DNA of 64,000 bases from Gemmatimonadota bacterium (GCA_003697105.1 RFFQ01000173.1:1976-65975), one strand, 5' to 3'; shown: positions 28,093-64,000, counted from the stretch's first letter. Made by a program: numbers and translations. Notes: a model not told the origin generated them from the sequence alone.

Positions 28093-28105
28093 GGTGTCGT
28101 CCTCC

Positions 28106-29797
28106 CTAGAATTTGATCGTTGCCGATAGTTGCCATGCCGATAGATCGGTCAATTTGGCAAAACCCATCAGATCGATTTGAAAATTGGTATTGACGTGAT
28201 ATCCGGCGCCATAAGTGTATTCGGTGTGAGTCATCGTGGTATTGTGTTTTTCAGATGTTCCCGTTTGGACTTCGTATGCTTCAGGTTGAATAGAACTCAC
28301 AACGCGCCCATCACCGTAGGTTATCACTTGCAAAGGTGGTTCGTTTAATTCAAACTGACGGGTAAGGGTCTCTTTGCGGGTGGTGATCGTGTGAAGTGCA
28401 CCTAGCCGTAAATCGATTTTCTTTGTCAAGGCAAATTCCATGGCTACCGGTAGTTTTAGCACTGTTTCGGCAGTGGTTTGTTTGGTGCTTTCTATCTCAT
28501 GTGCGATAACTTCTTCTGCCGAATCATCCCCGTCATTGGGTTCATTATCGCCATCATTTACTGTGGTTGTGTTGTAAACGTGGCGATTAAAGGTTTGCTC
28601 AAATGTCTCTTTGCCGGTGGTGACTCCGAAACCATAGGCAAATTTTGCCCGGTCGATGAACCTATAAACGGTGCGGGTATAAAATGTAACCTCATCCCGG
28701 CTCAAATCACCCTTGATGCTGGCGGAATCGTTCTCAGTTGTTCGGGTAAATTGATCGAATTCCCCAAGGGTGTACCATTCTTCTGAGACATGTGACCTGT
28801 AGATTTTAGCATCGCTATCCACGTCACCGGAGGAATGTTTCCACAGCAGGTCCACCCACGTCGTTTGGTTTGCACTCCAATGGTATTGTGCATTTACTCC
28901 AAGATAAAAATCCATGATCGAAAGCGGCATCTGTTGATCGGTGGCGGAGGACGCATGGGTATGATCCCGCAAGAGTGTATCTGCCGGAGCGCGATTCTGC
29001 CATTCTTCACTCCATTGATAATCTTGTTGTTCTGTCGATTGGAATCCTAAGCCGATTTGTCCCCCGAAACGCATATAAGACGAATATTCCTGTCTCACTG
29101 ACGCGACGAATAGATGCTCGTCTTGGCTGGTTTTATACAGTTCCTCTTGCGATTGTCTTTCGGAGGTGGTGACCTGATTCCATACTAGCTGGGTTAGAGT
29201 CTGCTGTTCGGAAAAAGAGCGTGGGGTTTCTTCTGTCTGGGTGCGGTATTTATAGAGCAGTCCAAAACGGGTGTACATGATAGCATTGGCATAGCCGAGG
29301 AACATCTCACGGGTAGAACGTTCTTGCCGGGCATTGGCGCGTGCCTCAATGTCGGTTCGCATGTCATACGTGGAGTGATCCCCATTCTCATCGCTCCAGA
29401 TGGTACGGATGGACTCGCTTTCACCGTATTGCCCCAGTGCATTTTCCAATAATTCCTCAAATCGGGAGGTGTTATACAGTAAACCACCACTACCAAATAT
29501 GAAATGTCCCGATCCTCCCAACAGATAGGCGTTTTCACTTTGATTATCCGAAAATTGAGTCTCGCTACCGCTAACCAGATTACTCAGGTTGGTATAAACT
29601 CGCATTCCGTCAATATAGGTCAATCCGACCGGATTTGCCAGCAATCCCGGCGAGTTATTAAGCCAAAGATCGAGGTCATCATCCAATAACCCCGCCGTAG
29701 CTTGCCGCCGGAATGATTCCCCGACCCAGGCATCTACCGGTGTAAACCACATACTGATCACCCAGATGACCAGTATGACGCATTTAATATTGCCCAT
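28106..29797 (-). CDS. putative outer-membrane beta-barrel protein
   Basis: Signal peptide from the internal Met (MGNIKCV ...) with a GGGAGG RBS. Alternating amphipathic strands and a C-terminal aromatic residue (...SATIKF). Confidence 0.5.
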   Translation of the reverse strand: MGNIKCVILVIWVISMWFTPVDAWVGESFRRQATAGLLDDDLDLWLNNSPGLLANPVGLTYIDGMRVYTNLSNLVSGSETQFSDNQSENAYLLGGSGHFIFGSGGLLYNTSRFEELLENALGQYGESESIRTIWSDENGDHSTYDMRTDIEARANARQERSTREMFLGYANAIMYTRFGLLYKYRTQTEETPRSFSEQQTLTQLVWNQVTTSERQSQEELYKTSQDEHLFVASVRQEYSSYMRFGGQIGLGFQSTEQQDYQWSEEWQNRAPADTLLRDHTHASSATDQQMPLSIMDFYLGVNAQYHWSANQTTWVDLLWKHSSGDVDSDAKIYRSHVSEEWYTLGEFDQFTRTTENDSASIKGDLSRDEVTFYTRTVYRFIDRAKFAYGFGVTTGKETFEQTFNRHVYNTTTVNDGDNEPNDGDDSAEEVIAHEIESTKQTTAETVLKLPVAMEFALTKKIDLRLGALHTITTRKETLTRQFELNEPPLQVITYGDGRVVSSIQPEAYEVQTGTSEKHNTTMTHTEYTYGAGYHVNTNFQIDLMGFAKLTDLSAWQLSATIKF

Positions 29798-29914
29798 GAT
29801 ATAAACCTCCCTGTGGTGTGAATTAAAATTTATTGCGCTCATCGCAAACGGTTTCCTGCTAATTGCCTATAATTTTAGCATATTTGGAAAGTTAGTGTCA
29901 ACCGGTTAATCGCA

Positions 29915-29951
29915 CAAAAAAACTCCCTCTCATCAAATTGGGAGAGGGAGT
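29915..29951 (-). terminator. Rho-independent terminator downstream of the 729 aa lipoprotein gene
   Basis: 10-bp stem (actccctctc / gagagggagt) with a T-run on the minus strand. Confidence 0.6.
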
Positions 29952-29984
29952 TTGGGATTTTTTTATCAATGCTACTGATGTGGG

Positions 29985-32174
29985 CTAGTTACTGCGTAAT
30001 TTATCCATCACGCATTGTACAACCGGCCGGGCTTGCTCTTTCGCCCGGTTGTATTCCTCATCTGGGTCATCACCCGGATTTGCTTCCGCCATATTCGAGA
30101 GCGGAAAGTTTGTCAGAATGGTTTGTGGGACATTCAAAACGGGCTTGAAGATCGTTCCCGCCACATTGGGCTGCGCATCGGAATAGGGGCGATATTCAAA
30201 AATCACTTCTGCATTTTCGGCGGGATAAAAATCTTCACGATACGGGTACGGACGATTTTCCGGAGCATCTAGCCATTCGGCATCCACACCGTTACACGAG
30301 TTCATCCCAATAATACTCAAATTGGAGGTTTCGGAAGCTCCTTGAGGGATGGTGGACCGCCGATTCACACCAAACAAGTAAGGAAAATCACCGCGTACAA
30401 ACACTTTATCGTCATAGCCTGATTTTTGAAGCAATTTGTTGCCGGATAACCAGACCTTACCTCCAGATAGAATATAAGCAGAGAGCTCATCTTGAATATT
30501 GATAAAGGGTGTATGATTATTTGGGCGAACGCCTTCAAAATAGGATACTACAACCGCATACTGGCCAATCATTTCGATTAAACCCTCTTGATTATATGGA
30601 ACAATCGTATAATTCTCGGTATCTTCGGCGTTAAAATGCCCGGTTTCCGTAAGCACATCCAGATAAAAATCTTCCATTTCCCACGGAATCAATCCGGCAT
30701 TCGGTTTATTCAATCGATTGGGGTCATCGGTAATCAGCAATACTTCTTTTTCAAATGTGGCATGAATCACGTTGTATTCCCAAGTGGCGGGGATATAAAT
30801 CGGGTTATTCGCATCACCTTCGATCTGGTATTGTCCAATTTGATACGAATCATCCATGACTCGCACGTACAAGGTATGCATTCCCGGGCTAAATGCCTCG
30901 CCTTCTTGCAGTGCATCATACCACGTTAATGGGTTGGCGACTACCGCTCCGGTAAGGTCATAAACATCTTCTGTAACCGGTATGGGGTTGCCTTCGTCAT
31001 CAAAAAAGCGCAAATAGAACTCCGTTTCGGTTTCACTATCGACAGGGATCCACTCACTCCATGTTGTGGTATCATCAATGGACCACGAGTAATGGGTAAT
31101 ATAGCCTTCTTCACCACCGCCGAACGCCTCGGGGATAGGGTCTGTATAGCTGATACGGAAGGGACCGATACCGTTCCAATTTTCCTGTCCAACGGATGGC
31201 TGGTTGGAACTGATATGATTTGCTGGTACTAGCACGTTTTCGGCGGCACCAAATGTAATTTCCACTTGCGGGGTCAAGCTGGTTACCCGGTAATAGTAGC
31301 GGTCATAGTCCGCGGGGTCAATATTGGCAGGATTCGCCGGTCCGGCGGGCCAGGAATAAATCTCGCTCACCGCATTGCTCACATCCCAGGGCGCTAAGAT
31401 CAGATTTTCTTCATTGCCTAAATCAACAAAATCGCCCGTGGTGATAAGGGCTTGGGATAAATTAGCACCTTCCAGCAAGTCGGGGGTCGTGGGGTCATCG
31501 ATATCGGTATCAACACCGGGGGTGACCCCGGCCGTCGCCTCTGGACTGTCCAGATCAATCCGTACCGGGCGGGCGAGATAGGGATCGGTGTGATCCAAAG
31601 TAAATGCGTAGTAAGCCACCGGTTCATCCTGCTCGTCATAAACCCCGTAACCCCGCTGGCTACTATATTCCTGACCACTCAGGAATATTTCTTGATCGAC
31701 CCCGGAATACATCAGGTCCCGGCTGGCTTTGTTGGCACGGCGGACCACTTCTTCGTAGCCGAGCCAGGAGGCGCGATTATCGACCGAAATCACCTGAAAT
31801 TTGTGCATCCGGATGGCGTCTAAGGTAACATCAAATTGGGCGTCCTCTGTCCAAATCCAGCGCCCGACTTCCGTTGGAGGTACTGCCGGGTCCGCCGGGG
31901 GATTATTCAAATCTGGGAAATCGGGATTGACCGAAATCACGCGCACAAAATAACCCACGACATCCCCATCCCCATCGAATCCGGCAAAACGGAAAGTCAA
32001 TTTATAAAAATCCGCCGTACCAAATGGATTATCAATGGGTGTAGGCGGGCTGATTCTTGCCAGTGGTGGGATATTCTCGCTAATATCGCCGCTATAATCT
32101 TTATCACAACTCATTAGGGTTACCGCCAGTATCACACTTAAGAAAAGCCCCCCGAAAGGGTACAATGTTTTCAT
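29985..32174 (-). CDS. large hypothetical lipoprotein of 729 aa
   Basis: Lipobox (LMSCD) and a GAGGAGG RBS. No recognisable domain. Confidence 0.5.
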   Translation of the reverse strand: MKTLYPFGGLFLSVILAVTLMSCDKDYSGDISENIPPLARISPPTPIDNPFGTADFYKLTFRFAGFDGDGDVVGYFVRVISVNPDFPDLNNPPADPAVPPTEVGRWIWTEDAQFDVTLDAIRMHKFQVISVDNRASWLGYEEVVRRANKASRDLMYSGVDQEIFLSGQEYSSQRGYGVYDEQDEPVAYYAFTLDHTDPYLARPVRIDLDSPEATAGVTPGVDTDIDDPTTPDLLEGANLSQALITTGDFVDLGNEENLILAPWDVSNAVSEIYSWPAGPANPANIDPADYDRYYYRVTSLTPQVEITFGAAENVLVPANHISSNQPSVGQENWNGIGPFRISYTDPIPEAFGGGEEGYITHYSWSIDDTTTWSEWIPVDSETETEFYLRFFDDEGNPIPVTEDVYDLTGAVVANPLTWYDALQEGEAFSPGMHTLYVRVMDDSYQIGQYQIEGDANNPIYIPATWEYNVIHATFEKEVLLITDDPNRLNKPNAGLIPWEMEDFYLDVLTETGHFNAEDTENYTIVPYNQEGLIEMIGQYAVVVSYFEGVRPNNHTPFINIQDELSAYILSGGKVWLSGNKLLQKSGYDDKVFVRGDFPYLFGVNRRSTIPQGASETSNLSIIGMNSCNGVDAEWLDAPENRPYPYREDFYPAENAEVIFEYRPYSDAQPNVAGTIFKPVLNVPQTILTNFPLSNMAEANPGDDPDEEYNRAKEQARPVVQCVMDKLRSN

Positions 32175-32947: not shown

Positions 32948-35041
32948 TTACAATTCCATATCCAGACGGGTGGGGGGTTTATTCCAATCGACAATCATGC
33001 GGGAGAGAAGGTCTCGGACTAACTCATTTGAGGGTTGTGGTGTCGTTGTACTGGCGGGTCGTTTTGCCGTTGAAGGTGCGGAAACGCTTGGCGTGGAATT
33101 TTCTCCTAATACGGAACGAAGTGTATCCAGCGTAATTGTGGTTTCTCCGTTGACAGAACACTGTGCTGTCAGGCGGTTTAAAATTCCTCGTAATTCCCGG
33201 ATACTATGTTGGTATTGGTGGGTAATATAGTCGAGAGCGCGGGGGTCTATTGTTAAGTTTAAGGCTTCAATATAATTTTTGACAATAGTTCGCCGTACTT
33301 CTGCTTTTGGCGATTTGAGTTCGATCACCAACCCCCCTTCAAAGCGGGAGCGAATCCGGTGCTCTACTTCTGTCAATAGATTCGGGGGACGATCACCACT
33401 AATGACGATCTGTTTGTTCACGGAATATAAGGTATTAAAGCAGTGAAAAAACTCTTCTTGGGTGCGCTCTTTGCCGCTCAAACGCTGAATATCGTCCATC
33501 AACAGCACATCAATTTCATTGTAATTCATCCGAAAGTCATCGGTGCGGCGCTCTTCAATTGCTTTGATTAAATGGCGGGCAAATTCATCCACGGTGATGT
33601 AGAGCACATTCAGATGCGCGTGATGATCGACAATGTAATTCCCGATAGCGTGGAGCAGGTGGGTTTTTCCCAAGCCGACGCCGCCATGAATATAAAGCGG
33701 GTTGTATTGCTTTGCTGGCGCCTGACTGACCGCTTTGGCAATGCTCATCAGCATTTTATTTTCATCCCCGGCGATGTAATTTTCAAACCGGAAATCCAAG
33801 ATCAAGGTTTGGCGATAGGTTTGGCGGCGTTCAATGCGGGTTTCGAGCCGTTTCAGGTCGGCGGCAATCTGGTCGATGGCTTCCGGGTTGAACAGATTTT
33901 GTTCGATTTTGCGGGCGTCTGCTTCCAGCCCTCGCACATCCAAACATGCCAATTGCTTTTGGAATTCCGCTAATCGTTTGGCATCGCGGGTGTATTCCCG
34001 AAAAACTCGTTCGATCTCTTCCACATTACCATCAATCACTTGCTGCAACCGGACGACATTAAAGCCTTTCATCTCCCACACATAGAGTTTTTGCCGGTAA
34101 AATTCGCGGAGTTCCTCTTCTTCTTGCCGTTTTGAGATGGTCTGGCTGACATCATGTTCGACTTCTTCGATAAATTGCCCGAATTCTTCCGGTAAACTAG
34201 ATTTGGCGGGGGATTTGGCGAGGGATTGAGGCTCGGGTTGGGCTACTGGTGGGGGAGTGACCTCCACCGCTGGGGAGGGTGGGGGGGTTGTGTCATAGCG
34301 TTTCTGGCGTTCGGCTAGGAGTCGTTGAACCCATTCCACGGTTACCTGCGCATCATTCAGGCTGGAAATCGCTAGGACTTGATTCAAGAAGCCCTCTAAT
34401 TCCCGGATGTTGGAGGTAATTCCCTGTGCGATCTCGTAGATCAACTCCTCCGGCAGGGTGATGTTACGCAGGGCGGCTTTATTGTTAAGGATGGCGACTC
34501 GTGTTTCAAAATCGGGTAGTTGGATATCGGCTACCAGCCCTCCTTCAAAACGGGAGCGTAACCGTTCATCCAAATCCATACTTTTCGGCGGACGATCACT
34601 GGTGAAGACGATCTGTTTTTGCAAGGTATAAAGTGTATCGAATGTATGCAGTAACTCCGTTTGGGAGCGGTCTTTATCGGCGAGGAATTGAATATCGTCG
34701 ATGAGCAGGCAATCCACATTGCGGTATTTGTTGTGGAAATCGTCAATGCTTTTGCGCCGTTCAAGGGCATCTAGCAGTTCATTCGCGAACTGTTCCGCGG
34801 TGGTATAGATGATTTGAATCTCAGGATTCGTTTGAAGGAGTTCATTACCGATGGCGCTGATGAGGTGGGTTTTGCCCAAGCCCACACCACTATAGATAAA
34901 AAGCGGATTATGCATAAAACCGGGCATATCCGCGACCCCTTTAGCGGCGGCATAAGCAAAGCGATTACTATTCCCAACAATAAAGTGATCAAAGGTAAAG
35001 TTGGGATTGAGGAAGAGTTGAAGTTGGTTACCTGCGCTCAT
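32948..35041 (-). CDS. tandem double DnaA-like AAA+ ATPase: two complete DnaA domain-III modules, with no domain I and no domain-IV DNA-binding domain
   Basis: Both halves carry Walker A (GVGLGKTHL), Walker B (LLIDDIQF / LLMDDIQR), sensor I (SDRPP / GDRPP), the box-VII arginine finger (RLRSRFEGGLV / RIRSRFEGGLV), a sensor-II-like segment, and the SNIRELEG / HSIRELRG lid. The halves are joined by a Pro-rich, coiled-coil linker of about 180 aa. A Ser/Thr-rich tail replaces the helix-turn-helix. Confidence 0.8.
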   Translation of the reverse strand: MSAGNQLQLFLNPNFTFDHFIVGNSNRFAYAAAKGVADMPGFMHNPLFIYSGVGLGKTHLISAIGNELLQTNPEIQIIYTTAEQFANELLDALERRKSIDDFHNKYRNVDCLLIDDIQFLADKDRSQTELLHTFDTLYTLQKQIVFTSDRPPKSMDLDERLRSRFEGGLVADIQLPDFETRVAILNNKAALRNITLPEELIYEIAQGITSNIRELEGFLNQVLAISSLNDAQVTVEWVQRLLAERQKRYDTTPPPSPAVEVTPPPVAQPEPQSLAKSPAKSSLPEEFGQFIEEVEHDVSQTISKRQEEEELREFYRQKLYVWEMKGFNVVRLQQVIDGNVEEIERVFREYTRDAKRLAEFQKQLACLDVRGLEADARKIEQNLFNPEAIDQIAADLKRLETRIERRQTYRQTLILDFRFENYIAGDENKMLMSIAKAVSQAPAKQYNPLYIHGGVGLGKTHLLHAIGNYIVDHHAHLNVLYITVDEFARHLIKAIEERRTDDFRMNYNEIDVLLMDDIQRLSGKERTQEEFFHCFNTLYSVNKQIVISGDRPPNLLTEVEHRIRSRFEGGLVIELKSPKAEVRRTIVKNYIEALNLTIDPRALDYITHQYQHSIRELRGILNRLTAQCSVNGETTITLDTLRSVLGENSTPSVSAPSTAKRPASTTTPQPSNELVRDLLSRMIVDWNKPPTRLDMEL

Positions 35042-45352: not shown

Positions 45353-46438
45353 TTAGAAGTTAAAATTCAAGCCGGAACTGATCGAATTGATATTGCCAAT
45401 GTTAAAATCGGCATTGAGGCTAAAAAAGCCAACGTGGAGCATCCCCCCAAGGGTGAACCGATATTTATTTTCCCCATCAATCTCAAAATTAATATCCACG
45501 TCCTCGGTACCCGCTTGACTTTCCAACTGGTAGGTATATGAAATGTCAATGGAGGAGCTTTCCAGCAGGAAACCGGCATACGGGGTAAATATCCCCATTG
45601 GTTTGCTAGCATTGATGCCATAAGCCATCGCGGTGACTTCCACAATATCACCGGCTTCTAGTTTTTGGGTATAAAATCCAAGTGCGACATCCACCGGCAA
45701 CGGTGCAGGTAGCCACACCGCCGGGTTGTGCTGAATCCCGAAGCCAAACAGCCCCACATCCCCAATTTCCTCAGTAAGATTGATGCCCGGTACAAACCGG
45801 AACAGGAGTTTTGTGCCATACACCGTTCCGATCCCGAATTGGGGCACGGCGAGGGGTAACACAGGCAGTTCATCCAACACACCGGTCACTTGGGTGACTT
45901 CCACGGTCTCCGCGTCCAGTTGATAGGTTTGGGTCTGCCCGCCATCGCTTACCGTAAAGGTATCTCCGGGAAAAACGACTTGTACATGTTCATCTTTACT
46001 GCCCACTGCCGTGGGACCGGACATGCTCACGGTGTACGTTTTTTCAATCATTTGGTCGATCACGTCGTCTTGATAGGCAGAGGGGATATTTTCATCTGCC
46101 AAAATTTGTTCGGCTTGACGCCGGGTAAAATTGAAGGTGGTTGTGGTTTCAAAAACATCATCGTCGCTGGCAAAGAATGACCCCATTGCGATCAACCCGA
46201 CCTCCACATGTAAATCCAGAAATTGGGCGGTTGCGGCTTGACCCAGCCAACCGGCATTCATATTTGCCCCAAATGCCGAAGGAAGCGAGCCTAAATACGC
46301 CTCGGCGGCATCTTGTGAAAGATTTTCTAGGGCTTCATCCAATGATTGGCTCGTTTCGTCTTGTGCCTGCACGGGAGTTACCCCGATCAATACGGCGCTG
46401 AACGCTAATACCCCCAACTTCATTAATGACCGATACAT
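45353..46438 (-). CDS. hypothetical secreted protein, possibly outer-membrane associated
   Basis: Start placed at the internal Met (MYRSLMKLGVLAF ...) with an AGGAGG RBS. Signal peptide, and a C-terminal ...NFNF. Confidence 0.5.
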   Translation of the reverse strand: MYRSLMKLGVLAFSAVLIGVTPVQAQDETSQSLDEALENLSQDAAEAYLGSLPSAFGANMNAGWLGQAATAQFLDLHVEVGLIAMGSFFASDDDVFETTTTFNFTRRQAEQILADENIPSAYQDDVIDQMIEKTYTVSMSGPTAVGSKDEHVQVVFPGDTFTVSDGGQTQTYQLDAETVEVTQVTGVLDELPVLPLAVPQFGIGTVYGTKLLFRFVPGINLTEEIGDVGLFGFGIQHNPAVWLPAPLPVDVALGFYTQKLEAGDIVEVTAMAYGINASKPMGIFTPYAGFLLESSSIDISYTYQLESQAGTEDVDINFEIDGENKYRFTLGGMLHVGFFSLNADFNIGNINSISSGLNFNF

Positions 46439-46683
46439 AGTGCCTCCTAACAAAAAATGTGATGGTGAACGTAGATCAAGACAGGATATTCCATCCCGAT
46501 AGGAATCATACTGGTTTTGATGAGGTCTGTCAATTAAATTTTTGAAATTAAATGAGTTAAGGCTGAATTCTGCAGACAAAATGTATATTTTCTATTGATC
46601 GATACGGCATTTTTGATTATTACATCAACATCGAAAAAACATCAGGATGTTTTGTTCAGTACTTCATTGAAAGGAGCAGGGTA

Positions 46684-57013: not shown

Positions 57014-57355
57014 AAATCCTCCCCCTTGTGTTAAATGTGGGTAACAAGCGGTAATTACACCGTACGAGATAAGCAAACATATACGAAACCCACTTGGGGC
57101 GCAATGGCTTTTTCAGAAAGTCCCAATCACTTAACAACTTACATAAAGTGAAAAAATTTATCTCATTTATTATCAATAGGTTATGTTGTATTTTAGTGTG
57201 GGAAGGGTAAAATTGCTAATTTTTTTGCAAAAAATTGCTTGACAAGATGTGGGATTTATGTTAAAAATTACTTCAGAAAGTACTTTAAGGGTTATTAGCC
57301 ATATCATTTATTATCATCAGCTTACGGTGATAATTTCGGTTGAGGAGACGGTGCG

Positions 57356-60300
57356 ATGATAAACCATACACCTTATACACTCGCCACTAGCAAGCAAGTT
57401 GGATTGGGGATCTTTTTGCTGTGCTGGCTGGTTTTTGTCGGAACGGCGGGATCATGGCCCTTTGATTTTGATACCGCGGATGGTATCGATACGTTCAATG
57501 GGACAACGTACATCGATACCGATGCCGGAGAGTTGATGATTTCGGCACCACCTGTAATTTTAACTGATGGAGAAGGCGGTACACCCTTCGCTGATACTCT
57601 GAGCGGTGCCAATGCCTCGCGAGTAACGGTCCGCCCCGAGTTAATCCATCTGAAAAATATTGATATTTTTACTGAAGATTTTACCACCACACAGTATCGA
57701 GGTGAAGCCACAACGGCATTATGGGTCACCAGACGGGGGGGCGGTATCACCTTACAATTCGCGGAAGGAAATTGGAGACCCCAAGAATCGGGTTCGATTC
57801 GTGATTTTAATGACATTGAGTTTATCTCCAAAGATATAGGCTGGGTTGCTGGCGGGAATGCCGCGACCCCCGCCATGTACAAAACGACTGACGGGGGCGC
57901 CACATGGACCAATATTACCGCATCGCTTCCGCCGGGTACAAGCGAATTACAGGATATTGATTTTTCCAGTTCCTCAATGTTAGCTGTGGGAGGAGGTATT
58001 TCGGGTACCATTATCATCTCCGAAGACCGGGGTGAAACGTGGATACGATTGAACCGCCCCGTAGATGCTGACGGGGATTCTTTATTCGATATTACCTCCG
58101 TCGATTTTATAGACCGGATGGAAGGATGGGTTTCGGCAGAATATGGACACATTTTTCATACAACAGATGGTGGTCAAACGTGGGTAGATCAACTGGAAGG
58201 TGTGGACCGGGATATCAACGACCTTGTTTTCATCGATCACCAGCAGGGATGGGCCTTTGGCGGGCAAGGCACTATTTTGAAGACGACAAACGGTGGCGAA
58301 GAGTGGATCCCGATCAATGCGGGTCTCAGCGCAACGTTACACGATGGTACCTATCGCCGTTGGAACTCCACCAATTATATTTTTACGGTCGGTGACGGTG
58401 GGGTGATTAGCCGGACCACCTCCGGCGGTAATGAATGGAGCGGTACGGAATTAAGTGACCAAGCCGGTAATCTAAATTCAATTGTCGTACGGGAATTTGA
58501 CAACGCCCTGCACGGTTGGATTAGTACGGAAAGTGGGGCGATTTACCGTTGTATCAATTTGCAGGATGACCCGGCGGAGTGGAATTGGTTTGCTCAGGAA
58601 ACCGGCACGCGTGAAAGTCTGCATGATATTACGGTGCGGGTGGTCACCGGCGCGATGCAAGAATCAAATTTTGTGGCGTGGGCGTGTGGCAGGCGTGGCA
58701 CCATTCTTTACAATCCATTATATGAGGGAGAAGGTGAAGTGGTTTCCACGGATGTGGTGGCAACCCACCCCACCGCAATTACGGGGGTGACTCTTACGGC
58801 AGATTTAGATTCCCTAGACGGGAGCGGGCATATCACGTTTTATGTTTCCAATAATCGTGGGGATTCATGGACACAGATTGATGAACTGGGTGTGTTTCAG
58901 CCCATACCGGTTAGCTCTGGATGTGATTGTAACACGCTAGCGTGGCGGGCGGAACTGAGTACGGATAATTTGGATTTTAGTCCCGCGATTTTTGAAGTAC
59001 GCATTGACTACCAGCATGGGTATGAAACCTCTGGAACGTACGCCTCTCCCATTTATGATTTTGGCAGTGCTGCCCAACAGCGCCGTTTTCAAGCGGTAAC
59101 ATGGGCATCTACGGTTCCGGAAGGCACGAGTTTGCACCTGTGGGGTGACCTCTACGATGCAGACCGCAACCTCCTCCGGAGTATTGATATGGGTACGTCC
59201 GGTTCCTATACATTTGATCTTCAAAGTTTGCTCAGTGTGGGCAACCAGTTCCGTTATCGGGTTGTTATGCAGACCGGAGACATGAGTGCCACGCCAGAAT
59301 TAACACAAGTGGTTGTGCAAACGGCTTACCTTAGTAGTGGACGGGCTAAACCGGAAAATCGATTAACCGCTGTGAATATTAAAGAATGGGATCGGGTCAT
59401 TGTGGATCTGGCAGAGTTCAATCCCCCCACCCATAGCTTAGAAATGCTGGTTTTTAAAAACGGTGCTCAGATATTCGATCTGCCTCCCCTGGTTTATGAA
59501 ACTGGTCGGGTTACTCGGGATGTTTCTGGAATCCCCACCGATGGTGACCTCAATGTAGAACTGCGACTTTCCACGGCTTCGGGTAGTACAACCCCCCGTA
59601 TCAACCGCCTGACGATCACATACCAATCCTACAGCCAGACCTACTTTGTGGATGAAAATGGGAACTCTCGCACGAAATATAATCTTGGTGAACCTATCTG
59701 CGGAGAAGTGGTAGATCGCGATGCGAACACCGACCCTACTTCCACCCAAACCGTTCCGGTAACATTCTCGTGTGATGAAACCGGTGATGTGCTCGTGACG
59801 ACCTTGACCGAGTTAGGCATCAATAGCGAGCGATTCCGCGGATGTATCCTTCAGGAAGTTAACCCGGTCGCTAACGTGGAAGATGCCATTTTACAGGTTG
59901 TTGATGGTGCTACGATCCGCGTGCGCTATGTTGACCCCGAAGACCCCGAGGACCAGAGCGAAGATCAGGCACGGATCGGTCAAGCCGAAAAAGGGGTCTC
60001 GTTTATTGATGAAAATGGCAATCCAGTGGATCGTTATGACGTTACGGATTCCGTTTGTGTGGAAGTCATCGACCCCGAAGCGAATCTTAGCCCCGTAGCA
60101 ATAGATAGTGTGGACGTATTGCTTTACAACGATGTTACGCTCGATACACTATTTGTCTGGCTCTTTGAAACCGGCAATGATACCGGGGTGTTCCGGGGCT
60201 GTATCGAAACAGAAATCAACCCCATTCGTGATTTAGCGGATCGCAAACTGCAGATTTATGATGATAGTGACATCGGGGTGATCTACTGTCCCGATAGTGA

Positions 60301-61426
60301 CCCGGATAACTGCGAAACGGATCGGGTGCCGGTGGGAGGTAACAAGGGCAGTTTTGTGGACGATCAGGGTGACCCCGTTGACCGTTACAATCTGGGTGAC
60401 CCGGTCTGTGTGGAAGTGCTGGATAATGACGCCAATATTAATCCGGTGGGGGTGGATAGCATCGATGTGGTGCTTTTTTGTGTGGAAACATTGGATACGC
60501 TGGAAACGATACTTTACGAAACGGGTGTGAATACCGGCTGGTTTAGTGGCTGTATCGATATTGAAGTCAATCCCATTCGTAATTTGGCAGATGATACGCT
60601 GCAAGTGATAGATGGTGCCGAATTGGGTCTGATTTATTGCCCCGAAGTGGGTGCCGAACCTTGCGTGGAAGACCGGGCGATCTACGGCGGAGCGGGTGAA
60701 AATTACGCCGGAGATGCCGCTTTTAAAGATGCTGGCTTTGCAAATCTTAGTGGGGATGAAATCTGCTTAAATCGTGATTTGTACTTGCAAGTAGAAGATG
60801 ATACTACCACCATGAACCCCGACCGCACGCTAGATGCGTCGCTTTATGTGGCAAGTAATCCAAATAATATTTTAGCCGTTACACTGGTACTCGATGAGAC
60901 GGACCGGGAGGGTATTACAAGTCCATTGCGGGCGTATTTTCGGGCGCAACTGCCGTGGTCGCAGGTGCAAGCCGCGCTCAATCTACAATTGGACGATTCA
61001 GTGGTCTTGGCATATGCCGATGCCAATGATGGTGATGCCGACCCCGATAACAATATCAAAACCGCCCAAGTACGGGTAACCAACTGTGATGTCCCTGTTG
61101 AAGGGGGTTATTTGATTGTTTTTCCGAACCCATATAAAGAGACGGATGAAGGAACTGACCCGGTCTTTGAGTATCGTCCCAAAGGATTAGCTACCCTTGA
61201 TAATCTCACCATGACGATCTACAATATTGCCGCTGAGGAGGTACGACGTGTCGGCTTGGCAGATTTTGAGGCATGTACTATTCGTGGCGGTGCTCTCTGT
61301 TTCGCTTGGGATAAGACGAACAATAATGGTAAGGCGGTTTCCAGCGGGACGTATTTTGCCGTTGTAGAAGCCACTGGCGGTGGCAAGTCAGACCGGCAAA
61401 CCGTCAAGCTGTTTCTGGTACGATAA
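57356..61426 (+). CDS. giant secreted protein: BNR/Asp-box beta-propeller, about four tandem Cys-containing repeat domains of roughly 125 aa, and a T9SS type-A (FlgD-Ig-like) C-terminal sorting domain
   Basis: Signal / transmembrane start. Repeated T(T/S)DGG.TW motifs, and DNA- and protein-level tandem repeats at 59600-60700. C-terminal ...TMTIYNIAAEEVRRV ... SGTYFAVVEA ... KLFLVR. Confidence 0.75.
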   Translation: MINHTPYTLATSKQVGLGIFLLCWLVFVGTAGSWPFDFDTADGIDTFNGTTYIDTDAGELMISAPPVILTDGEGGTPFADTLSGANASRVTVRPELIHLKNIDIFTEDFTTTQYRGEATTALWVTRRGGGITLQFAEGNWRPQESGSIRDFNDIEFISKDIGWVAGGNAATPAMYKTTDGGATWTNITASLPPGTSELQDIDFSSSSMLAVGGGISGTIIISEDRGETWIRLNRPVDADGDSLFDITSVDFIDRMEGWVSAEYGHIFHTTDGGQTWVDQLEGVDRDINDLVFIDHQQGWAFGGQGTILKTTNGGEEWIPINAGLSATLHDGTYRRWNSTNYIFTVGDGGVISRTTSGGNEWSGTELSDQAGNLNSIVVREFDNALHGWISTESGAIYRCINLQDDPAEWNWFAQETGTRESLHDITVRVVTGAMQESNFVAWACGRRGTILYNPLYEGEGEVVSTDVVATHPTAITGVTLTADLDSLDGSGHITFYVSNNRGDSWTQIDELGVFQPIPVSSGCDCNTLAWRAELSTDNLDFSPAIFEVRIDYQHGYETSGTYASPIYDFGSAAQQRRFQAVTWASTVPEGTSLHLWGDLYDADRNLLRSIDMGTSGSYTFDLQSLLSVGNQFRYRVVMQTGDMSATPELTQVVVQTAYLSSGRAKPENRLTAVNIKEWDRVIVDLAEFNPPTHSLEMLVFKNGAQIFDLPPLVYETGRVTRDVSGIPTDGDLNVELRLSTASGSTTPRINRLTITYQSYSQTYFVDENGNSRTKYNLGEPICGEVVDRDANTDPTSTQTVPVTFSCDETGDVLVTTLTELGINSERFRGCILQEVNPVANVEDAILQVVDGATIRVRYVDPEDPEDQSEDQARIGQAEKGVSFIDENGNPVDRYDVTDSVCVEVIDPEANLSPVAIDSVDVLLYNDVTLDTLFVWLFETGNDTGVFRGCIETEINPIRDLADRKLQIYDDSDIGVIYCPDSDPDNCETDRVPVGGNKGSFVDDQGDPVDRYNLGDPVCVEVLDNDANINPVGVDSIDVVLFCVETLDTLETILYETGVNTGWFSGCIDIEVNPIRNLADDTLQVIDGAELGLIYCPEVGAEPCVEDRAIYGGAGENYAGDAAFKDAGFANLSGDEICLNRDLYLQVEDDTTTMNPDRTLDASLYVASNPNNILAVTLVLDETDREGITSPLRAYFRAQLPWSQVQAALNLQLDDSVVLAYADANDGDADPDNNIKTAQVRVTNCDVPVEGGYLIVFPNPYKETDEGTDPVFEYRPKGLATLDNLTMTIYNIAAEEVRRVGLADFEACTIRGGALCFAWDKTNNNGKAVSSGTYFAVVEATGGGKSDRQTVKLFLVR

Positions 61427-61459
61427 ACCCAAAGCGTATAAGTTGAGGAGGTTTTTACA

Positions 61460-63319
61460 ATGAAACAAATTCTGCGTATTGCTCTTATCATGGCGCTGTC
61501 CATGTTCGCTTGGGGGAGCGTATCTATCGCGGTTGCCGCGGAGGATGATGCCGGTACGGATGGCGCGGCGTTTATGAAGGTTGCTTTGGGTGCGCGTCAA
61601 GCGGGAATGGGCGAAGCTTTTACCGGTCTGGCAGATGATGGCTATGCGATTCAGTATAACCCTGCGGGGATCGTGTTTATGGGTCGCTGGCGGCTTGATG
61701 CCGTCGGTAATCCGATGGTGCGGAAGTGGAACTGGGAATTTACCTTCATGCGCAACCAATGGATGGATGATACCAACCAGAATTATGTCGGGCTGGTACA
61801 TCCCATGGGGGATTGGGCGCTTTCGCTCGGTGCCATCTATTTTGATGAAGGCTCCGTCGATGAACGGGATCGTATGGGGAATCTGACCGGTAGTAGCGCC
61901 AGTGCCTATGATGCCGTTCCATCGCTGGGGATTGCTTACCGGCTCAGCAAACATCTCGGGGTAGGTGTTACCGGACGGATGTTATACAGCAATATCGCGG
62001 ACGAGACCGCTACCGGTTTCTCTGCGGATGTGGGTTTACTGGCAAATTTTGAGACCTTTATGATCGGAGCTTCAGCCCAAAATCTGGGGTCAACGCTTCA
62101 ATTTTTGGAGCAATCGGATAATAACCCGATGGTCTTTCGGGGTGGGATTGCGATTCCATTGCTCAGTTGGGTCTCCCAACCGGCATTGAAAAGTGACCTT
62201 GTCATTACCAGTGACATCGTTTACCGGCAAGATAATAAACCCTACTTTAATGTGGGGGGTGAATATGTCTGGAATGATTTACTGGCATTACGTGGTGGCT
62301 ACAAAGCCCAAACGGATATTGAAGGGTTGACTCTGGGAGCAGGATTCATGTTAGGTGATCGTGATAACTATGAGTTGCAAATTGATTATGCTTATGCGCC
62401 GCTCGATGTCATCCAAGAGGATATGCACCGGGTGAGTTTGACGTTACGATTTGGTCCGCAGTTAGGTAAAACACGCACGGCGCCGATAATGACCCGCCCA
62501 CCAGCGCCTGCCCCACCGGCTCCCGTGAAGAGTGAACGCGAAATATTAGCCCAGCCCGAGCGCGTTGAAGATATTGTGGGCACGGATGATGAATCGATTG
62601 AAATTGTCGCCCCGGAAAGTGCGGAAGAGTGGATCCGGTTGCGGGTGCGCATCAATTTTGATTTTGATAAATCGGATATTCGCCCCGATATGGAACCGAC
62701 CTTACAAAAAGTGGGTGAAATCTTACGGTTAGCTCCCAATAGCATGATTCAGTTGGAAGGTCATACCGATGCAATTGGTTCCGAAGCGTACAATATTGGT
62801 TTGTCCTATCGCCGGGCAACTTCGGTGATGGATTGGCTCATCAAGCATGAACAGATTGCCAAAAAGAATTTCCTGAAACCGGTAGGGTACGGGGAAACCC
62901 GCCCCATTGCACCGAATTCTACGGCGGAAGGTCGCTGGATGAATCGCCGCGTGGTTGTGATTGTCTATAACCCGGGCGTGAAGAACAATGTTAAACCGGC
63001 AACCGAATTGAAAGACGTTCAGGTTCGGTCTGGGGCATTAGGAGGAAGTGTCGAAGTGGCGATGACATTTGATGGCATGATTCAACCTCAAACACCCTTC
63101 AGCCTACCCAATCCGGAGCGGTTGGTGATCGACTTGCCGGGAGTGCTGGCAGCTTTTGAGTCCAAAACCATTCCCAGTACACTCGGTGCCGTCCAGCAAG
63201 TTCGGGTGATGTCCCACCAGGAGGGGAATTTCACCCGTGTCGTACTCGACTTGACCAAACCCTCCTCATACGAAATGAAAGTTGAAGATAATCAAGCAAT
63301 TCTTTTAATCAGTCCCTAA
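61460..63319 (+). CDS. outer-membrane fusion protein: PorV/PorQ-like beta-barrel, Pro-rich linker, OmpA-like peptidoglycan-binding domain, and C-terminal AMIN domain
   Basis: N-terminal GARQAGMGEAFTGLADDGYAIQYNPAGI is PorV/UPF0164-like. OmpA motif LEGHTDAIGSEAYNIGLSYRRA ... NRRVVV. C-terminal AMIN-like RVVLDL segment. Confidence 0.7.
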   Translation: MKQILRIALIMALSMFAWGSVSIAVAAEDDAGTDGAAFMKVALGARQAGMGEAFTGLADDGYAIQYNPAGIVFMGRWRLDAVGNPMVRKWNWEFTFMRNQWMDDTNQNYVGLVHPMGDWALSLGAIYFDEGSVDERDRMGNLTGSSASAYDAVPSLGIAYRLSKHLGVGVTGRMLYSNIADETATGFSADVGLLANFETFMIGASAQNLGSTLQFLEQSDNNPMVFRGGIAIPLLSWVSQPALKSDLVITSDIVYRQDNKPYFNVGGEYVWNDLLALRGGYKAQTDIEGLTLGAGFMLGDRDNYELQIDYAYAPLDVIQEDMHRVSLTLRFGPQLGKTRTAPIMTRPPAPAPPAPVKSEREILAQPERVEDIVGTDDESIEIVAPESAEEWIRLRVRINFDFDKSDIRPDMEPTLQKVGEILRLAPNSMIQLEGHTDAIGSEAYNIGLSYRRATSVMDWLIKHEQIAKKNFLKPVGYGETRPIAPNSTAEGRWMNRRVVVIVYNPGVKNNVKPATELKDVQVRSGALGGSVEVAMTFDGMIQPQTPFSLPNPERLVIDLPGVLAAFESKTIPSTLGAVQQVRVMSHQEGNFTRVVLDLTKPSSYEMKVEDNQAILLISP

Positions 63320-63633
63320 TCTTTTTTAGACGCCCAAACGATACTTTCGGAAGGAAACCAAGGGTTGAGTTATGCGACCAGAAGCATTGTGATATGGAAT
63401 TCGTAGCGGATTTTCGGATACGTGACCGTGACCGGCTTCTGATCGGATTGGGGGAAATGACCACAGCGATGTTAAGTCACACGGAGTTGGCGGTTTTGAA
63501 CTCTGAGGTTTAGACCCCTCGCTAAAGACAGACAAAGCAAAGCAAAAAACGGGATTCTTTACTGGTGCTCACGTGATGCTTAATTCCTGTGGTCGTCCCC
63601 CGAAACCCTTAACCGATGTTATCATGCCCTCAC

Positions 63634-63669
63634 AAAACCGCATTAGTTGCCCACTGATGCGGTTTTTTT
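63634..63669 (+). terminator. Rho-independent terminator with no coding gene upstream
   Basis: aaaaccgcat ... atgcggtttt followed by ttttt, about 315 nt after the nearest upstream stop. Confidence 0.5.
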
Positions 63670-63776
63670 CATGCTTGACAATTGCGGTAGGATTTTGCTA
63701 GCATTATTGGGGATGCGTCCGGCGCATCCCTAAATTCAATTTCCTATTTTATCACTTTCATTTTCAGGAGGTTATC

Positions 63777-64000
63777 TTGGAAAAAACGTATACTATGATC
63801 AAACCGGACGCCGTAAAAAAGGGCGTGATCGGCAAAATGATCTACCGGATTGAAGAAGCCGGTTTTGCGATTCGTGCCATGCGAATGGCAACGTTAACAA
63901 CCGAACGGGCGCAAGAATTTTATGCTGTACATAAAGAACGTCCTTTTTACGGTGAATTGGTGGAGTTTATGACCTCCGGACCGGTCGTGATGATGGTCTT
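63777..64000 (+). CDS. ndk: nucleoside diphosphate kinase, 3' partial
   Basis: TTG start after an AGGAGG RBS. Motifs [12 protein letters not shown] and [26 protein letters not shown]. Confidence 0.85.

What the first reader, a model, noticed from the sequence alone, without database searches (positions are those of the whole stretch)
57356..63319. T9SS-type giant cargo followed by a PorV-like barrel fused to OmpA and AMIN domains
The cargo (57356-61426) combines an N-terminal BNR beta-propeller, about four recently duplicated Cys-containing repeats of roughly 125 aa that are near-identical at DNA level (59600-60700), and a type-A C-terminal sorting domain. The next gene starts 34 nt downstream and encodes a PorV/PorQ-like beta-barrel. 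The barrel is covalently joined through a PAPAPPAP linker to a peptidoglycan-binding OmpA domain and a C-terminal AMIN domain. I have not seen this fusion described. It would tether a T9SS shuttle-like barrel to peptidoglycan and to septal or AMIN-recognised sites.
Basis: partly seen in the sequence, partly recalled or inferred. Interest (0 to 1): 0.55.

Follow-up and report, generated by a model that had tools for sequence, protein, structure and literature searches.

The report
Peptidoglycan-tethered PorV-like barrel with conserved partner
Two adjacent genes encode a surface protein carrying a type IX-style C-terminal tag and a PorV-like outer-membrane barrel whose tail binds the cell wall; the pair is conserved across a whole candidate phylum and most likely forms a fixed surface anchor, a new variant of known type IX anchoring complexes.

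Summary
Both ORFs sit exactly where the finding says. The 619-aa protein really is a PorV/PorQ-family barrel joined to an OmpA domain and an AMIN domain. The barrel scores 145 bits on NF033709 (cut-off 90), the model has 14 strands, and F. johnsoniae PorV is the best PDB match by sequence profile and by fold. It is not an assembly artefact. The same architecture occurs in at least 57 species genomes, mostly candidate division KSB1.

Two claims fail. The repeats are three, not four. They are 36-51% identical as protein and 55-60% as DNA, so the duplications are old. The window's own C-terminal domain reaches the FlgD_ig model but not the type-A model TIGR04183.

The upstream protein is not an arbitrary giant cargo. 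In 53 of 53 relatives with upstream DNA, a homologue lies directly upstream on the same strand. [quoted passage not shown]

My best reading is a dedicated surface-anchor pair stapled to peptidoglycan. It would work like P. gingivalis PorE-PorP-PG1035 or PorQ-PorZ, with the wall-binding part fused to the barrel. No T9SS core gene lies in the window, and the rest of the genome could not be checked. I file it as a new variant of a known kind, of moderate interest.

The parts
57239..57268 (+). Promoter-like site (TTGACA-18-AAAAAT) about 90 nt upstream of the first gene
   Evidence: Consensus scan only. The number of such sites in the region is no higher than in shuffles, so this is weak evidence.
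57356..61426 (+). Partner gene (the 'cargo'), 1356 aa: signal peptide, propeller head, stalk, C-terminal domain
   Evidence: ORF. Identical to NCBI 'hypothetical protein D6675_14290 [Gemmatimonadetes bacterium]'. Homologues lie directly upstream of the barrel gene in 53 of 53 relatives with upstream DNA.
57356..57454 (+). N-terminal signal peptide or hydrophobic segment (aa 1-33)
   Evidence: Read directly from the sequence...VGLGIFLLCWLVFVGTAGS. No predictor was run.
57743..58915 (+). BNR/Ycf48-like beta-propeller (aa ~130-520)
   Evidence: PF14870 at 72.7 bits and NF010237 at 74 bits. PDB Ycf48 structures at E 6e-14. Five Asp-box-like motifs. Most KSB1 partners scanned (14 of 19 in A3) match an NHL model here instead.
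58916..59638 (+). Three modules that each end in a '(T/S)P...V/I...Y' motif (aa ~521-761), shared with KSB1 partners; fold unknown
   Evidence: BLASTP homology of cargo aa ~545-946 to the upstream ORFs of the related loci. Consensus of A3. Motif positions. No Pfam or PDB match.
59639..60703 (+). Three tandem Cys-containing repeats of about 118 aa (59639-59995, 59996-60346, 60347-60703)
   Evidence: A repeat HMM finds exactly three copies. They are 36-51% identical as protein and 55-60% as DNA. Relatives carry 1-2 copies and the closest relative, L082, carries 1. The structure model is unusable (pLDDT 56).
60704..61102 (+). Spacer region (aa 1117-1249), not a detectable fourth repeat
   Evidence: Local alignment against each repeat is no better than shuffles (z <= 0.8).
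61103..61423 (+). C-terminal domain of T9SS type-A/FlgD_ig kind (aa 1250-1356; FPNPY ... TIYNIAAEEV ... SSGTYF ... KLFLVR)
   Evidence: PF13860 at 30-32 bits, cut-off 27. Conserved in 45 partners (A2). At E <= 0.01, 22 of 45 orthologous domains hit TIGR04183 and 32 of 45 hit the CTD part of the PorU model. The best PDB match of the profile is the PorU CTD, 6za2, E 0.0016.
61427..61459 (+). 33-nt intergenic spacer with the Shine-Dalgarno sequence GAGGAGG; no terminator-like site
   Evidence: This suggests co-transcription, which is an inference.
61460..63319 (+). PorV/PorQ-family barrel fused to OmpA and AMIN domains, 619 aa
61460..61540 (+). Signal peptide (aa 1-27, ...SIAVAA|ED); no lipobox Cys
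   Evidence: Read directly from the sequence.
61541..62458 (+). N-terminal segment plus 14-stranded beta-barrel (aa 28-333)
   Evidence: NF033709 at 145.2 bits, cut-off 90. The AF2 model shows 14 strands over aa 92-331. The top Foldseek matches are PorV 8gl6_F and 6h3i_F, with TM 0.61-0.63 normalised to the target. PDB profile match to PorV at E 1e-12.
62459..62632 (+). Periplasmic linker (aa 334-391) including TRPPAPAPPAPVK and a short helix
   Evidence: Relatives other than P0002 carry a longer charged 'EAAEKAR'-type linker here.
62633..62974 (+). OmpA-like peptidoglycan-binding domain (aa 392-505)
   Evidence: PF00691 at 68.3 bits. PDB OprF C-domain at E 4e-34. D437 and R452 of the TD...LSxRR motif are invariant in 17 relatives.
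63005..63316 (+). C-terminal AMIN domain (aa 516-619)
   Evidence: PF11741 at 45.6 bits, cut-off 20.5. PilQ AMIN (3jc8) at E 2.9e-8. The beta-sandwich is modelled with 10-residue-block pLDDT of 64-90, mostly 78-90.
63707..63733 (+). Strong terminator-like hairpin (12-bp stem), 390 nt after the barrel gene and just before ndk
   Evidence: Whether it terminates this operon is unknown.

Best explanation
The two genes form a dedicated, co-transcribed envelope module.

Proposed mechanism:
1. The upstream protein is exported by Sec.
2. It crosses the outer membrane by a type IX-like route that recognises its C-terminal domain (CTD).
3. It then stays on the cell surface because that CTD remains docked, non-covalently, on the PorV/PorQ-family barrel encoded just downstream.
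4. The barrel's C-terminus lies in the periplasm. It continues through a linker into an OmpA-like domain that binds peptidoglycan and an AMIN domain that may add preference for septal or polar wall.

The result would be a fixed chain: surface propeller protein, outer-membrane barrel, cell wall. It would resemble PorE-PorP-PG1035 or PorQ-PorZ of P. gingivalis, with the wall-binding component fused to the barrel.

What is shown:
- the domain identities;
- the 14-strand PorV-like fold;
- conserved wall-binding residues in the OmpA domain;
- strict conservation of the gene pair;
- conservation of the CTD.

What is inferred:
- CTD-barrel binding;
- retention rather than cleavage of the CTD;
- dependence on a T9SS translocon;
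- any septal or polar targeting.
For: - Barrel identity: NF033709 at 145 bits against a cut-off of 90. PDB profile match to PorV at E 1e-12. Fourteen strands in the model, with PorV as the top two Foldseek matches and FadL-type barrels weaker.
- Wall-binding tail: OmpA at 68 bits with invariant D437 and R452, and AMIN at 45.6 bits.
- Real architecture: 17 protein clusters and 57 species genomes.
- Cognate pairing: a homologous protein of about 950-1000 aa lies directly upstream on the same strand in 53 of 53 loci with upstream DNA, with gaps mostly 3-70 nt. The wider flanks are housekeeping genes and differ between lineages.
- Partner CTD: strongly conserved (A2). It scores far above other CTD-bearing proteins of the same genomes with its own profile: 63-69 bits for the window and L082 partners against 15-34 bits for the other proteins.
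- T9SS-type CTDs in relatives: unrelated proteins in their flanks carry TIGR04183 CTDs above cut-off.
- Operon signals: a Shine-Dalgarno sequence and no terminator between the genes.
- Precedents: PorU and PorZ are held on the surface by PorV and PorQ (PMC5562754). PorE-PorP-PG1035 and SprB-SprF form complexes (PMC9143113). Type B substrates are genetically linked to cognate PorP/SprF shuttles (PMC12618676). AMIN domains are fused to other outer-membrane modules and direct PilQ to septal and polar wall (PMC2572700, PMC10653833).
Against: - No T9SS core gene (SprA/Sov, PorK/L/M/N, PorU) lies in the 64-kb window or in the flanks of relatives. The rest of the genome is unseen.
- The window's own CTD misses TIGR04183 and PF18962.
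- The barrel is far below the PorV (59.6 against 250) and PorQ (58.3 against 220) equivalog thresholds, and below Pfam PorV (15.6 against 27).
- The PorV/PorQ family model and its Pfam relative UPF0164 also cover proteins whose link to T9SS is unproven.
- FlgD_ig-like domains also occur inside a related family of barrel-OmpA fusions, probably in the periplasm, so a FlgD_ig match alone does not show a secretion signal.
- Other large secreted-looking proteins in the window lack this CTD.
- No physical interaction was tested.
- The structure model is only moderately confident (pLDDT 68.9).
Confidence: 0.5

Rival explanations
1. The barrel is a true PorV-type shuttle or translocon-associated receptor. 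It collects the CTD of this substrate, and possibly others, at the SprA/Sov pore. The OmpA-AMIN tail positions the secretion site relative to the wall, doing PorE's job in cis. The partner is then released or attached elsewhere.
For: - PorV is the best structural and sequence match.
- PorE is an OmpA_C-like wall-binding T9SS component that contacts an outer-membrane barrel (PMC7192894 abstract; PMC9143113).
- No other PorV-like barrel was seen in about 0.93 Mb of relatives' flanks, although that is a small sample of each genome.
Against: - A wall-stapled barrel cannot diffuse as the shuttle model requires. This is an inference.
- The strict one-to-one gene pairing and a partner-specific CTD subfamily argue for a dedicated relationship.
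- Relatives carry many ordinary TIGR04183 substrates that are not paired with this barrel.
Confidence: 0.2
2. The barrel-OmpA-AMIN protein is mainly a structural tether between outer membrane and cell wall, or a FadL-like channel, that works independently of type IX secretion. The upstream propeller protein is functionally related but is not docked on the barrel through its C-terminal domain.
For: - FadL, TodX and OmpG are also significant fold matches.
- The barrel family is huge: 8368 clusters at 50% identity. It carries varied periplasmic tails, namely OmpA, TPR and Ig.
- The sister family with barrel, FlgD_ig and OmpA has no upstream partner.
- The pair sits among housekeeping genes.
- No T9SS core gene was seen.
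Against: - PorV outranks the FadL-type barrels in E-value and TM-score.
- The partner's CTD is of the T9SS type. At E <= 0.01, TIGR04183 is hit by 22 of 45 orthologues, and the best PDB match is the PorU CTD.
- Adjacency in 53 of 53 loci with short gaps is hard to explain without a direct functional link.
Confidence: 0.2
3. The fusion or the repeats are assembly or annotation artefacts: a frameshift joining two genes, or a collapsed or expanded repeat array.
For: The source is a metagenome-assembled genome.
Against: - The identical 619-aa protein is on a separately recorded JGI metagenome contig together with the same neighbours.
- The three-domain architecture aligns end to end in 17 clusters and 57 species genomes.
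- The repeats are too diverged (55-60% DNA identity) to be mis-assembled.
Confidence: 0.02

Closest known systems
PorE-PorP-PG1035 complex of Porphyromonas gingivalis (Gorasia et al. 2022, PMC9143113)
   Same: Three functions in one assembly: a surface protein held by its T9SS CTD, an outer-membrane beta-barrel that holds it, and an OmpA_C-like wall-binding module on the periplasmic side.
   Different: - There, the wall binder (PorE) is a separate lipoprotein. The barrel belongs to the PorP/SprF family and the CTD is type B.
- Here, the wall binder is fused to the barrel. The barrel belongs to the PorV/PorQ family and the CTD is type-A/FlgD_ig-like. An AMIN domain is added.
PorQ-PorZ and PorV-PorU sub-complexes of the T9SS attachment complex (Glew et al. 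2017, PMC5562754)
   Same: - A PorV-family barrel anchors a large surface protein.
- From my own knowledge, PorZ is built of beta-propellers plus a CTD, like the partner here.
- The partner CTD profile gives its best PDB match to the PorU CTD and weak matches to PorZ.
   Different: - The partner has no PorU peptidase domain and no PorZ match outside the CTD.
- From my own knowledge, the P. gingivalis genes are not adjacent.
- PorV and PorQ have no periplasmic wall-binding tail.
- The equivalog thresholds are not met.
Cognate type B CTD substrate with PorP/SprF-like shuttle pairs, such as SprB-SprF in Flavobacterium johnsoniae (Paillat et al. 2025, PMC12618676; PMC9143113)
   Same: The CTD protein and its dedicated outer-membrane barrel are genetically linked. 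The barrel determines the final surface location of the substrate.
   Different: The barrel family and the CTD type differ. Those barrels have no fused wall-binding domains, and the phylum is different.
E. coli OmpA / P. aeruginosa OprF type proteins
   Same: An N-terminal outer-membrane barrel, a proline-rich linker and a periplasmic OmpA-like wall-binding domain (PDB OprF C-domain at E 4e-34).
   Different: The barrel has 14 strands and is PorV-like, not 8-stranded. It carries an extra AMIN domain and is paired with a CTD-bearing partner.
AMIN-bearing outer-membrane modules: PilQ secretin, TonB-dependent receptor and OEP fusions (de Souza et al. 2008, PMC2572700; Herfurth et al. 2023, PMC10653833)
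   Same: An AMIN domain attached to an outer-membrane transport or assembly module. In PilQ it directs the machine to septal and polar wall.
   Different: - A PorV-family barrel is not among the fusion partners quoted from the 2008 survey's architecture list in the passages retrieved, and OmpA is not mentioned anywhere in that paper.
- Here AMIN is C-terminal and follows an OmpA domain.

Membership tests
PorV/PorQ family (NCBIfam NF033709) | Score at or above the curated cut-off of the family HMM (90 bits) | tested here: met
   145.2 bits, E 3.3e-42, aa 34-331 covering model positions 2-326 of 326.
PorV/PorQ family (NCBIfam NF033709) | 14-stranded FadL-like outer-membrane beta-barrel most similar to solved PorV | tested here: met
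   The AF2 model has 14 strands over aa 92-331, with overall pLDDT 68.9. Foldseek ranks PorV 8gl6_F and 6h3i_F first (E 3e-12 and 4e-11, TM 0.61-0.63), above FadL and TodX. PDB profile match to PorV at E 1e-12.
PorV proper (NF033710 equivalog; Pfam PF19572) | Score at or above the equivalog cut-off (250 bits) or the Pfam gathering score (27 bits) | tested here: not met
   59.6 bits against 250. PF19572 at 15.6 bits against 27.
PorQ proper (NF033711 equivalog) | Score at or above the cut-off of 220 bits | tested here: not met
   58.3 bits.
Type IX secretion system component | Genome encodes the core machinery (SprA/Sov, PorK/L/M/N or GldK/L/M/N, PorU) | not testable with these tools
   None found in the 64-kb window by Pfam or in the 10-kb flanks of L001, the one related locus whose conserved neighbours were scanned with Pfam. 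Relatives do carry several TIGR04183-positive proteins.
Type IX secretion system component | Barrel binds the CTD of its substrate | not testable with these tools
   Only indirect support: adjacency in 53 of 53 loci and a partner-specific CTD subfamily.
T9SS type A sorting domain (TIGR04183 / PF18962) | The C-terminal ~70-100 aa reach the domain model cut-off (23 bits for TIGR04183) | tested here: inconclusive
   The window copy has no hit at E <= 0.01 to TIGR04183 or PF18962. It passes PF13860 FlgD_ig at 30-32 bits against 27. Among 45 orthologous CTDs, at E <= 0.01, 22 hit TIGR04183, 32 hit the CTD part of the PorU model and 4 hit PF18962.
OmpA-like peptidoglycan-binding domain (PF00691) | Pfam gathering score, and the conserved Asp and Arg of the wall-binding site | tested here: met
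   68.3 bits against 27.2. H435, D437, N445, L448, S449 and R452 are invariant in 17 relatives. That the Asp and Arg contact the wall peptide is from my knowledge of the A. baumannii OmpA structures (3TD3-5), which are among the PDB matches.
AMIN domain (PF11741) | Pfam gathering score (20.5 bits) | tested here: met
   45.6 bits over aa 529-613. PilQ AMIN (3jc8) at E 2.9e-8. Septal or polar targeting was not tested.
PorZ / PorU (for the upstream protein) | Match to the family model outside the CTD: the PorU C25-like peptidase domain, or the PorZ double propeller | tested here: not met
   PorZ at 11.6 bits, CTD only. PorU hits are confined to the CTD and are shared by unrelated CTD proteins.

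The most novel reading that the evidence does not exclude
The pair is a previously unrecognised trans-envelope staple derived from type IX secretion, near-universal in KSB1 and neighbouring lineages. A PorV-like barrel would hold a surface propeller protein outside and bind peptidoglycan inside. Its AMIN domain would place it at division sites and new poles. It could then act in outer-membrane tethering or constriction, or in polar surface display. That would make it a core cell-envelope organiser, not a secretion accessory.
Probability: 0.15. Interest if true: 0.7.

Novelty: new variant of a known kind. Interest (0 to 1): 0.45.

Why it matters
Work on type IX secretion rests almost entirely on Bacteroidota.

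- A phylum-wide, single-copy pair outside that phylum would show that non-covalent anchoring by a CTD docked on a barrel is ancient and modular.
- In this pair the barrel is a PorV-family protein, fused to wall-binding domains and partnered with one dedicated CTD protein.
- It would also show that the wall-binding function, supplied in trans by PorE in P. gingivalis, can be built into the barrel.
- It gives a compact two-gene system for testing CTD-barrel specificity, and for testing whether AMIN domains can position outer-membrane proteins.
- If the link to type IX secretion fails, the protein is still a new OmpA-like envelope tether with a 14-strand barrel.

Tried and rejected
- **Recent repeat expansion.** Rejected. 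Tandem Repeats Finder and the direct-repeat search find no long DNA repeats. Identity is 55-60% for DNA and 36-51% for protein.
- **A fourth repeat.** Rejected by a shuffle test.
- **Assembly frameshift.** Rejected by conservation and by the identical protein on a separate JGI contig.
- **The partner as a PorU or PorZ homologue.** Rejected. The matches are confined to the CTD, and unrelated CTD proteins give the same PorU matches.
- **Taxonomy from GatA.** The best non-self match is only about 58% identical and the matches scatter across phyla. The organism remains an unplaced deep lineage that NCBI labels Gemmatimonadetes.
- **Word-based homologue search with the partner stalk.** A model of one repeat from the three internal copies came out at pLDDT 56 and was not searched.
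- **Synteny of the wider flanks between the window and relatives.** None.
- **Literature.** Searches for KSB1 with T9SS, PorV with OmpA and AMIN, and FlgD Ig-like with T9SS found nothing. The Zhuqueibacterota genome paper does not mention secretion.
- **The gene downstream of ndk on the JGI contig.** No PDB relative.
- **Rfam on the whole window.** Only one tRNA.

Full report
**1. What is in the sequence**

Two same-strand ORFs lie at 57356-61426 (1356 aa) and 61460-63319 (619 aa). They are separated by 33 nt that contain GAGGAGG 7 nt before the second ATG. No terminator-like site lies between them. The neighbours are housekeeping genes. Upstream are rimM, trmD and rplS, then an MscS-type channel gene on the other strand. 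Downstream, after a 470-nt spacer, is ndk.

**2. The 619-aa protein**

- NCBIfam places aa 34-331 in the PorV/PorQ family: NF033709 at 145.2 bits against a cut-off of 90, covering the whole model.
- The PorV and PorQ equivalog models score only 59.6 and 58.3 bits, against cut-offs of 250 and 220.
- Pfam finds OmpA (aa 400-495, 68.3 bits) and AMIN (aa 529-613, 45.6 bits). Pfam PorV is below threshold at 15.6 bits.
- A profile of 17 full-length relatives matches F. johnsoniae PorV (6h3i_F) at E 1e-12. It matches OprF, OmpA, Pal and MotB C-domains at up to E 4e-34. It matches the PilQ AMIN region at E 2.9e-8.
- An AlphaFold2 model built on that alignment has mean pLDDT 68.9. It shows 14 beta-strands over aa 92-331, a helix in the linker, an alpha/beta OmpA fold and a C-terminal beta-sandwich.
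- Foldseek against the PDB ranks the PorV chains of the T9SS translocon structures first: 8gl6_F and 6h3i_F, E 3e-12 and 4e-11, TM 0.61-0.63 normalised to the target. FadL and TodX barrels score lower, at TM 0.37-0.52.
- The barrel has an even number of strands, so both its ends lie on the periplasmic side. That is general knowledge of outer-membrane barrels. The linker (…TRPPAPAPPAPVK…), OmpA and AMIN are therefore periplasmic.
- The OmpA motif residues D437 and R452 are invariant in all 17 relatives.
- The signal peptide has no lipobox cysteine.

**3. The fusion is real and widespread**

- Seventeen protein clusters at 30-41% identity share the whole architecture over 613-676 aa. NCBI names one of them 'PorV/PorQ family protein [candidate division KSB1 bacterium]'.
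- A scan of one genome per GTDB species found full-length relatives in 57 genomes. Most are labelled KSB1 or Zhuqueibacterota. A few are labelled Calditrichota, Cloacimonetes, Gemmatimonadota or 'Cytophagia'.
- The identical protein is also on a separately recorded JGI metagenome contig with the same neighbours.
- The partner is identical to NCBI 'hypothetical protein D6675_14290 [Gemmatimonadetes bacterium]'.
- The window's GatA has no relative above about 58% identity, so the organism is a deep, poorly sampled lineage.
- A search with the barrel alone against 1.84 billion representative proteins gives 8368 clusters at E <= 0.001. About a quarter of the best 150 are 450 aa or longer, with the barrel at the N-terminus.
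- Ten of those were scanned. Their tails are OmpA alone, OmpA plus TPR, TPR alone or Ig/fn3 domains.
- PorV-like barrels with periplasmic tails are therefore a general theme, and OmpA plus AMIN is one version of it.

**4. The upstream protein is a conserved partner, not an arbitrary cargo**

- In every one of the 53 related loci that include upstream DNA, the gene directly upstream on the same strand is a homologue of this protein. It is about 950-1000 aa long, and the gap is mostly 3-70 nt. Identity is 22-30% over cargo aa ~545-946 and over the C-terminal domain.
- The four loci without it start at a contig end.
- The wider flanks are housekeeping genes that differ from those of the window.
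- The shared part is a stalk: three modules that each end in a '(T/S)P...V...Y' motif, then one to three copies of a 118-aa Cys-containing domain, then the C-terminal domain.
- The head differs between lineages. KSB1 partners carry an NHL-type propeller. The window, L023 and L011 carry a Ycf48/BNR-type propeller.

**5. The repeats**

An HMM of the repeat finds exactly three copies, at aa 762-1116 (window 59639-60703). They are 36-51% identical as protein and 55-60% as DNA. Tandem Repeats Finder sees no such array. The following 133 aa are no more similar to the repeats than shuffled sequence. The closest relative, L082, has one clear copy. The triplication is therefore specific to this lineage but old.

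**6. The C-terminal domain**

- The last ~107 aa (FPNPY … TIYNIAAEEVRRV … SSGTYF … KLFLVR) align with the C-termini of 44 partners. P, N, P, W, G, Y and K are invariant (A2).
- The window copy passes PF13860 FlgD_ig at 30-32 bits. It gives no hit to TIGR04183 or PF18962 at E <= 0.01.
- Across the 45 orthologues, at E <= 0.01, 22 hit TIGR04183, 32 hit the C-terminal part of the PorU model and 4 hit PorZ.
- The best PDB match of the profile is the CTD of PorU (6za2, residues 1055-1154, E 0.0016).
- The PorU matches are not specific. Unrelated CTD proteins from the same genomes give them too.
- Those unrelated proteins include M1 peptidases, a BNR/PorZ-like propeller and others. They carry TIGR04183 domains above cut-off, at 33-43 bits against 23. 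The KSB1 relatives therefore do use type-A CTDs generally.
- With the partner-CTD profile, the window and L082 partners score 63-69 bits and those other proteins only 15-34 bits. The partner CTD is a distinct subfamily.
- In the window itself, no other large secreted-looking protein has this domain.

**7. Most likely mechanism**

Known systems supply close precedents.

- In P. gingivalis, PorU and PorZ are held on the surface by PorV and PorQ (PMC5562754).
[quoted passage not shown] SprB binds SprF (PMC9143113).
- In F. johnsoniae, type B substrates are genetically linked to cognate PorP/SprF shuttles that decide their final location (PMC12618676).
- AMIN domains are fused to secretins, TonB-dependent receptors and OEP channels. 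In PilQ they direct assembly to septal and polar wall (PMC2572700, PMC10653833).

Against this background the pair reads as a dedicated anchor. The partner's CTD would dock on the extracellular side of its own PorV-family barrel. The barrel is tied to peptidoglycan through OmpA and AMIN. A wall-tied barrel is unlikely to act as a freely diffusing shuttle, which is an inference. I put this model at about 0.5.

The rivals are:
- a translocon-associated PorV/PorE hybrid (0.2);
- a tether or channel independent of T9SS (0.2);
- an artefact (0.02).

**8. What remains open**

- No T9SS core gene is in the window or in the 10-kb flanks of L001, the one related locus whose conserved neighbours were scanned with Pfam. 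The rest of the genome could not be reached.
- CTD-barrel binding, CTD retention and AMIN-dependent localisation are all inferred.
- No paper on this architecture, or on T9SS in KSB1, was found.

**9. Verdict**

The repeat claim does not. The 'giant cargo' is better described as the cognate partner of a conserved two-gene envelope module. It is a new variant of known T9SS anchoring arrangements. It is already present but unremarked in databases, and it is of moderate interest.

Noticed in passing
L083 8001-9932, L085 8001-9968 (proteins P0051, P0027): A sister family of PorV-like barrels carries a FlgD_ig-like domain and an OmpA domain in the same polypeptide. It has no CTD-bearing partner upstream, and its flanks are conserved housekeeping genes. 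It looks as if the beta-sandwich that is in trans here is in cis there.
   Followed up: partly
L047 12179-14356: In one KSB1 genome, a separate 725-aa protein lies about 330 nt downstream of the barrel gene. It combines a BNR/F510_1955-type propeller, a PorZ-like C-terminal region (E 4.7e-10) and a TIGR04183 CTD. It resembles the propeller head that is fused to the partner in the window.
   Followed up: partly
L023 5750-9262 and 9399-9830: In this 'Gemmatimonadota' MAG, which has one of the closest full-length partner homologues, the partner appears split into a 1170-aa ORF and a separate 143-aa ORF carrying the CTD. This could be a frameshift, an assembly error or a real split.
   Followed up: no
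window 32948-35041 (- strand): A 697-aa protein with two DnaA-type AAA+ ATPase domains in tandem (Bac_DnaA matched in two stretches, 408 bits). No other DnaA-specific domain was listed at E <= 1e-5.
   Followed up: no
window 11582-15925 (+ strand): A 1447-aa secreted-looking protein with Laminin_G_3 and several ASH/DUF1573-type Ig domains. Its C-terminus looks dockerin- or EF-hand-like (DLNCDGVIDIIDVE… DVVVDGVIDEKDV) and is not a T9SS CTD.
   Followed up: no
window 63320-63790: A 470-nt non-coding spacer lies between the barrel gene and ndk. It has a 12-bp-stem terminator-like hairpin at 63707-63733 and a promoter-like site at 63675-63704. There is no Rfam match.
   Followed up: partly
window 26332-32174 (- strand): Three consecutive genes with little or no annotation: a Big_5 Ig-like lipoprotein (586 aa), a 578-aa protein ending in an outer-membrane-barrel-like C-terminal Phe, and a 729-aa lipoprotein. 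This may be another envelope module.
   Followed up: no
window 45353-46579 (- strand): A DUF6588 protein (156.8 bits) that ends in ...GLNFNF. It looks like another uncharacterised outer-membrane barrel.
   Followed up: no
A1 alignment columns ~410-500 (relatives P0004-P0018): Relatives other than P0002 have a linker of about 70-100 aa between barrel and OmpA that is charged and looks helical (…ELEAAEKAR…AEEAERR…). The window protein and P0002 have a short proline-rich linker instead. This could reflect different periplasmic spacing or oligomerisation.
   Followed up: no
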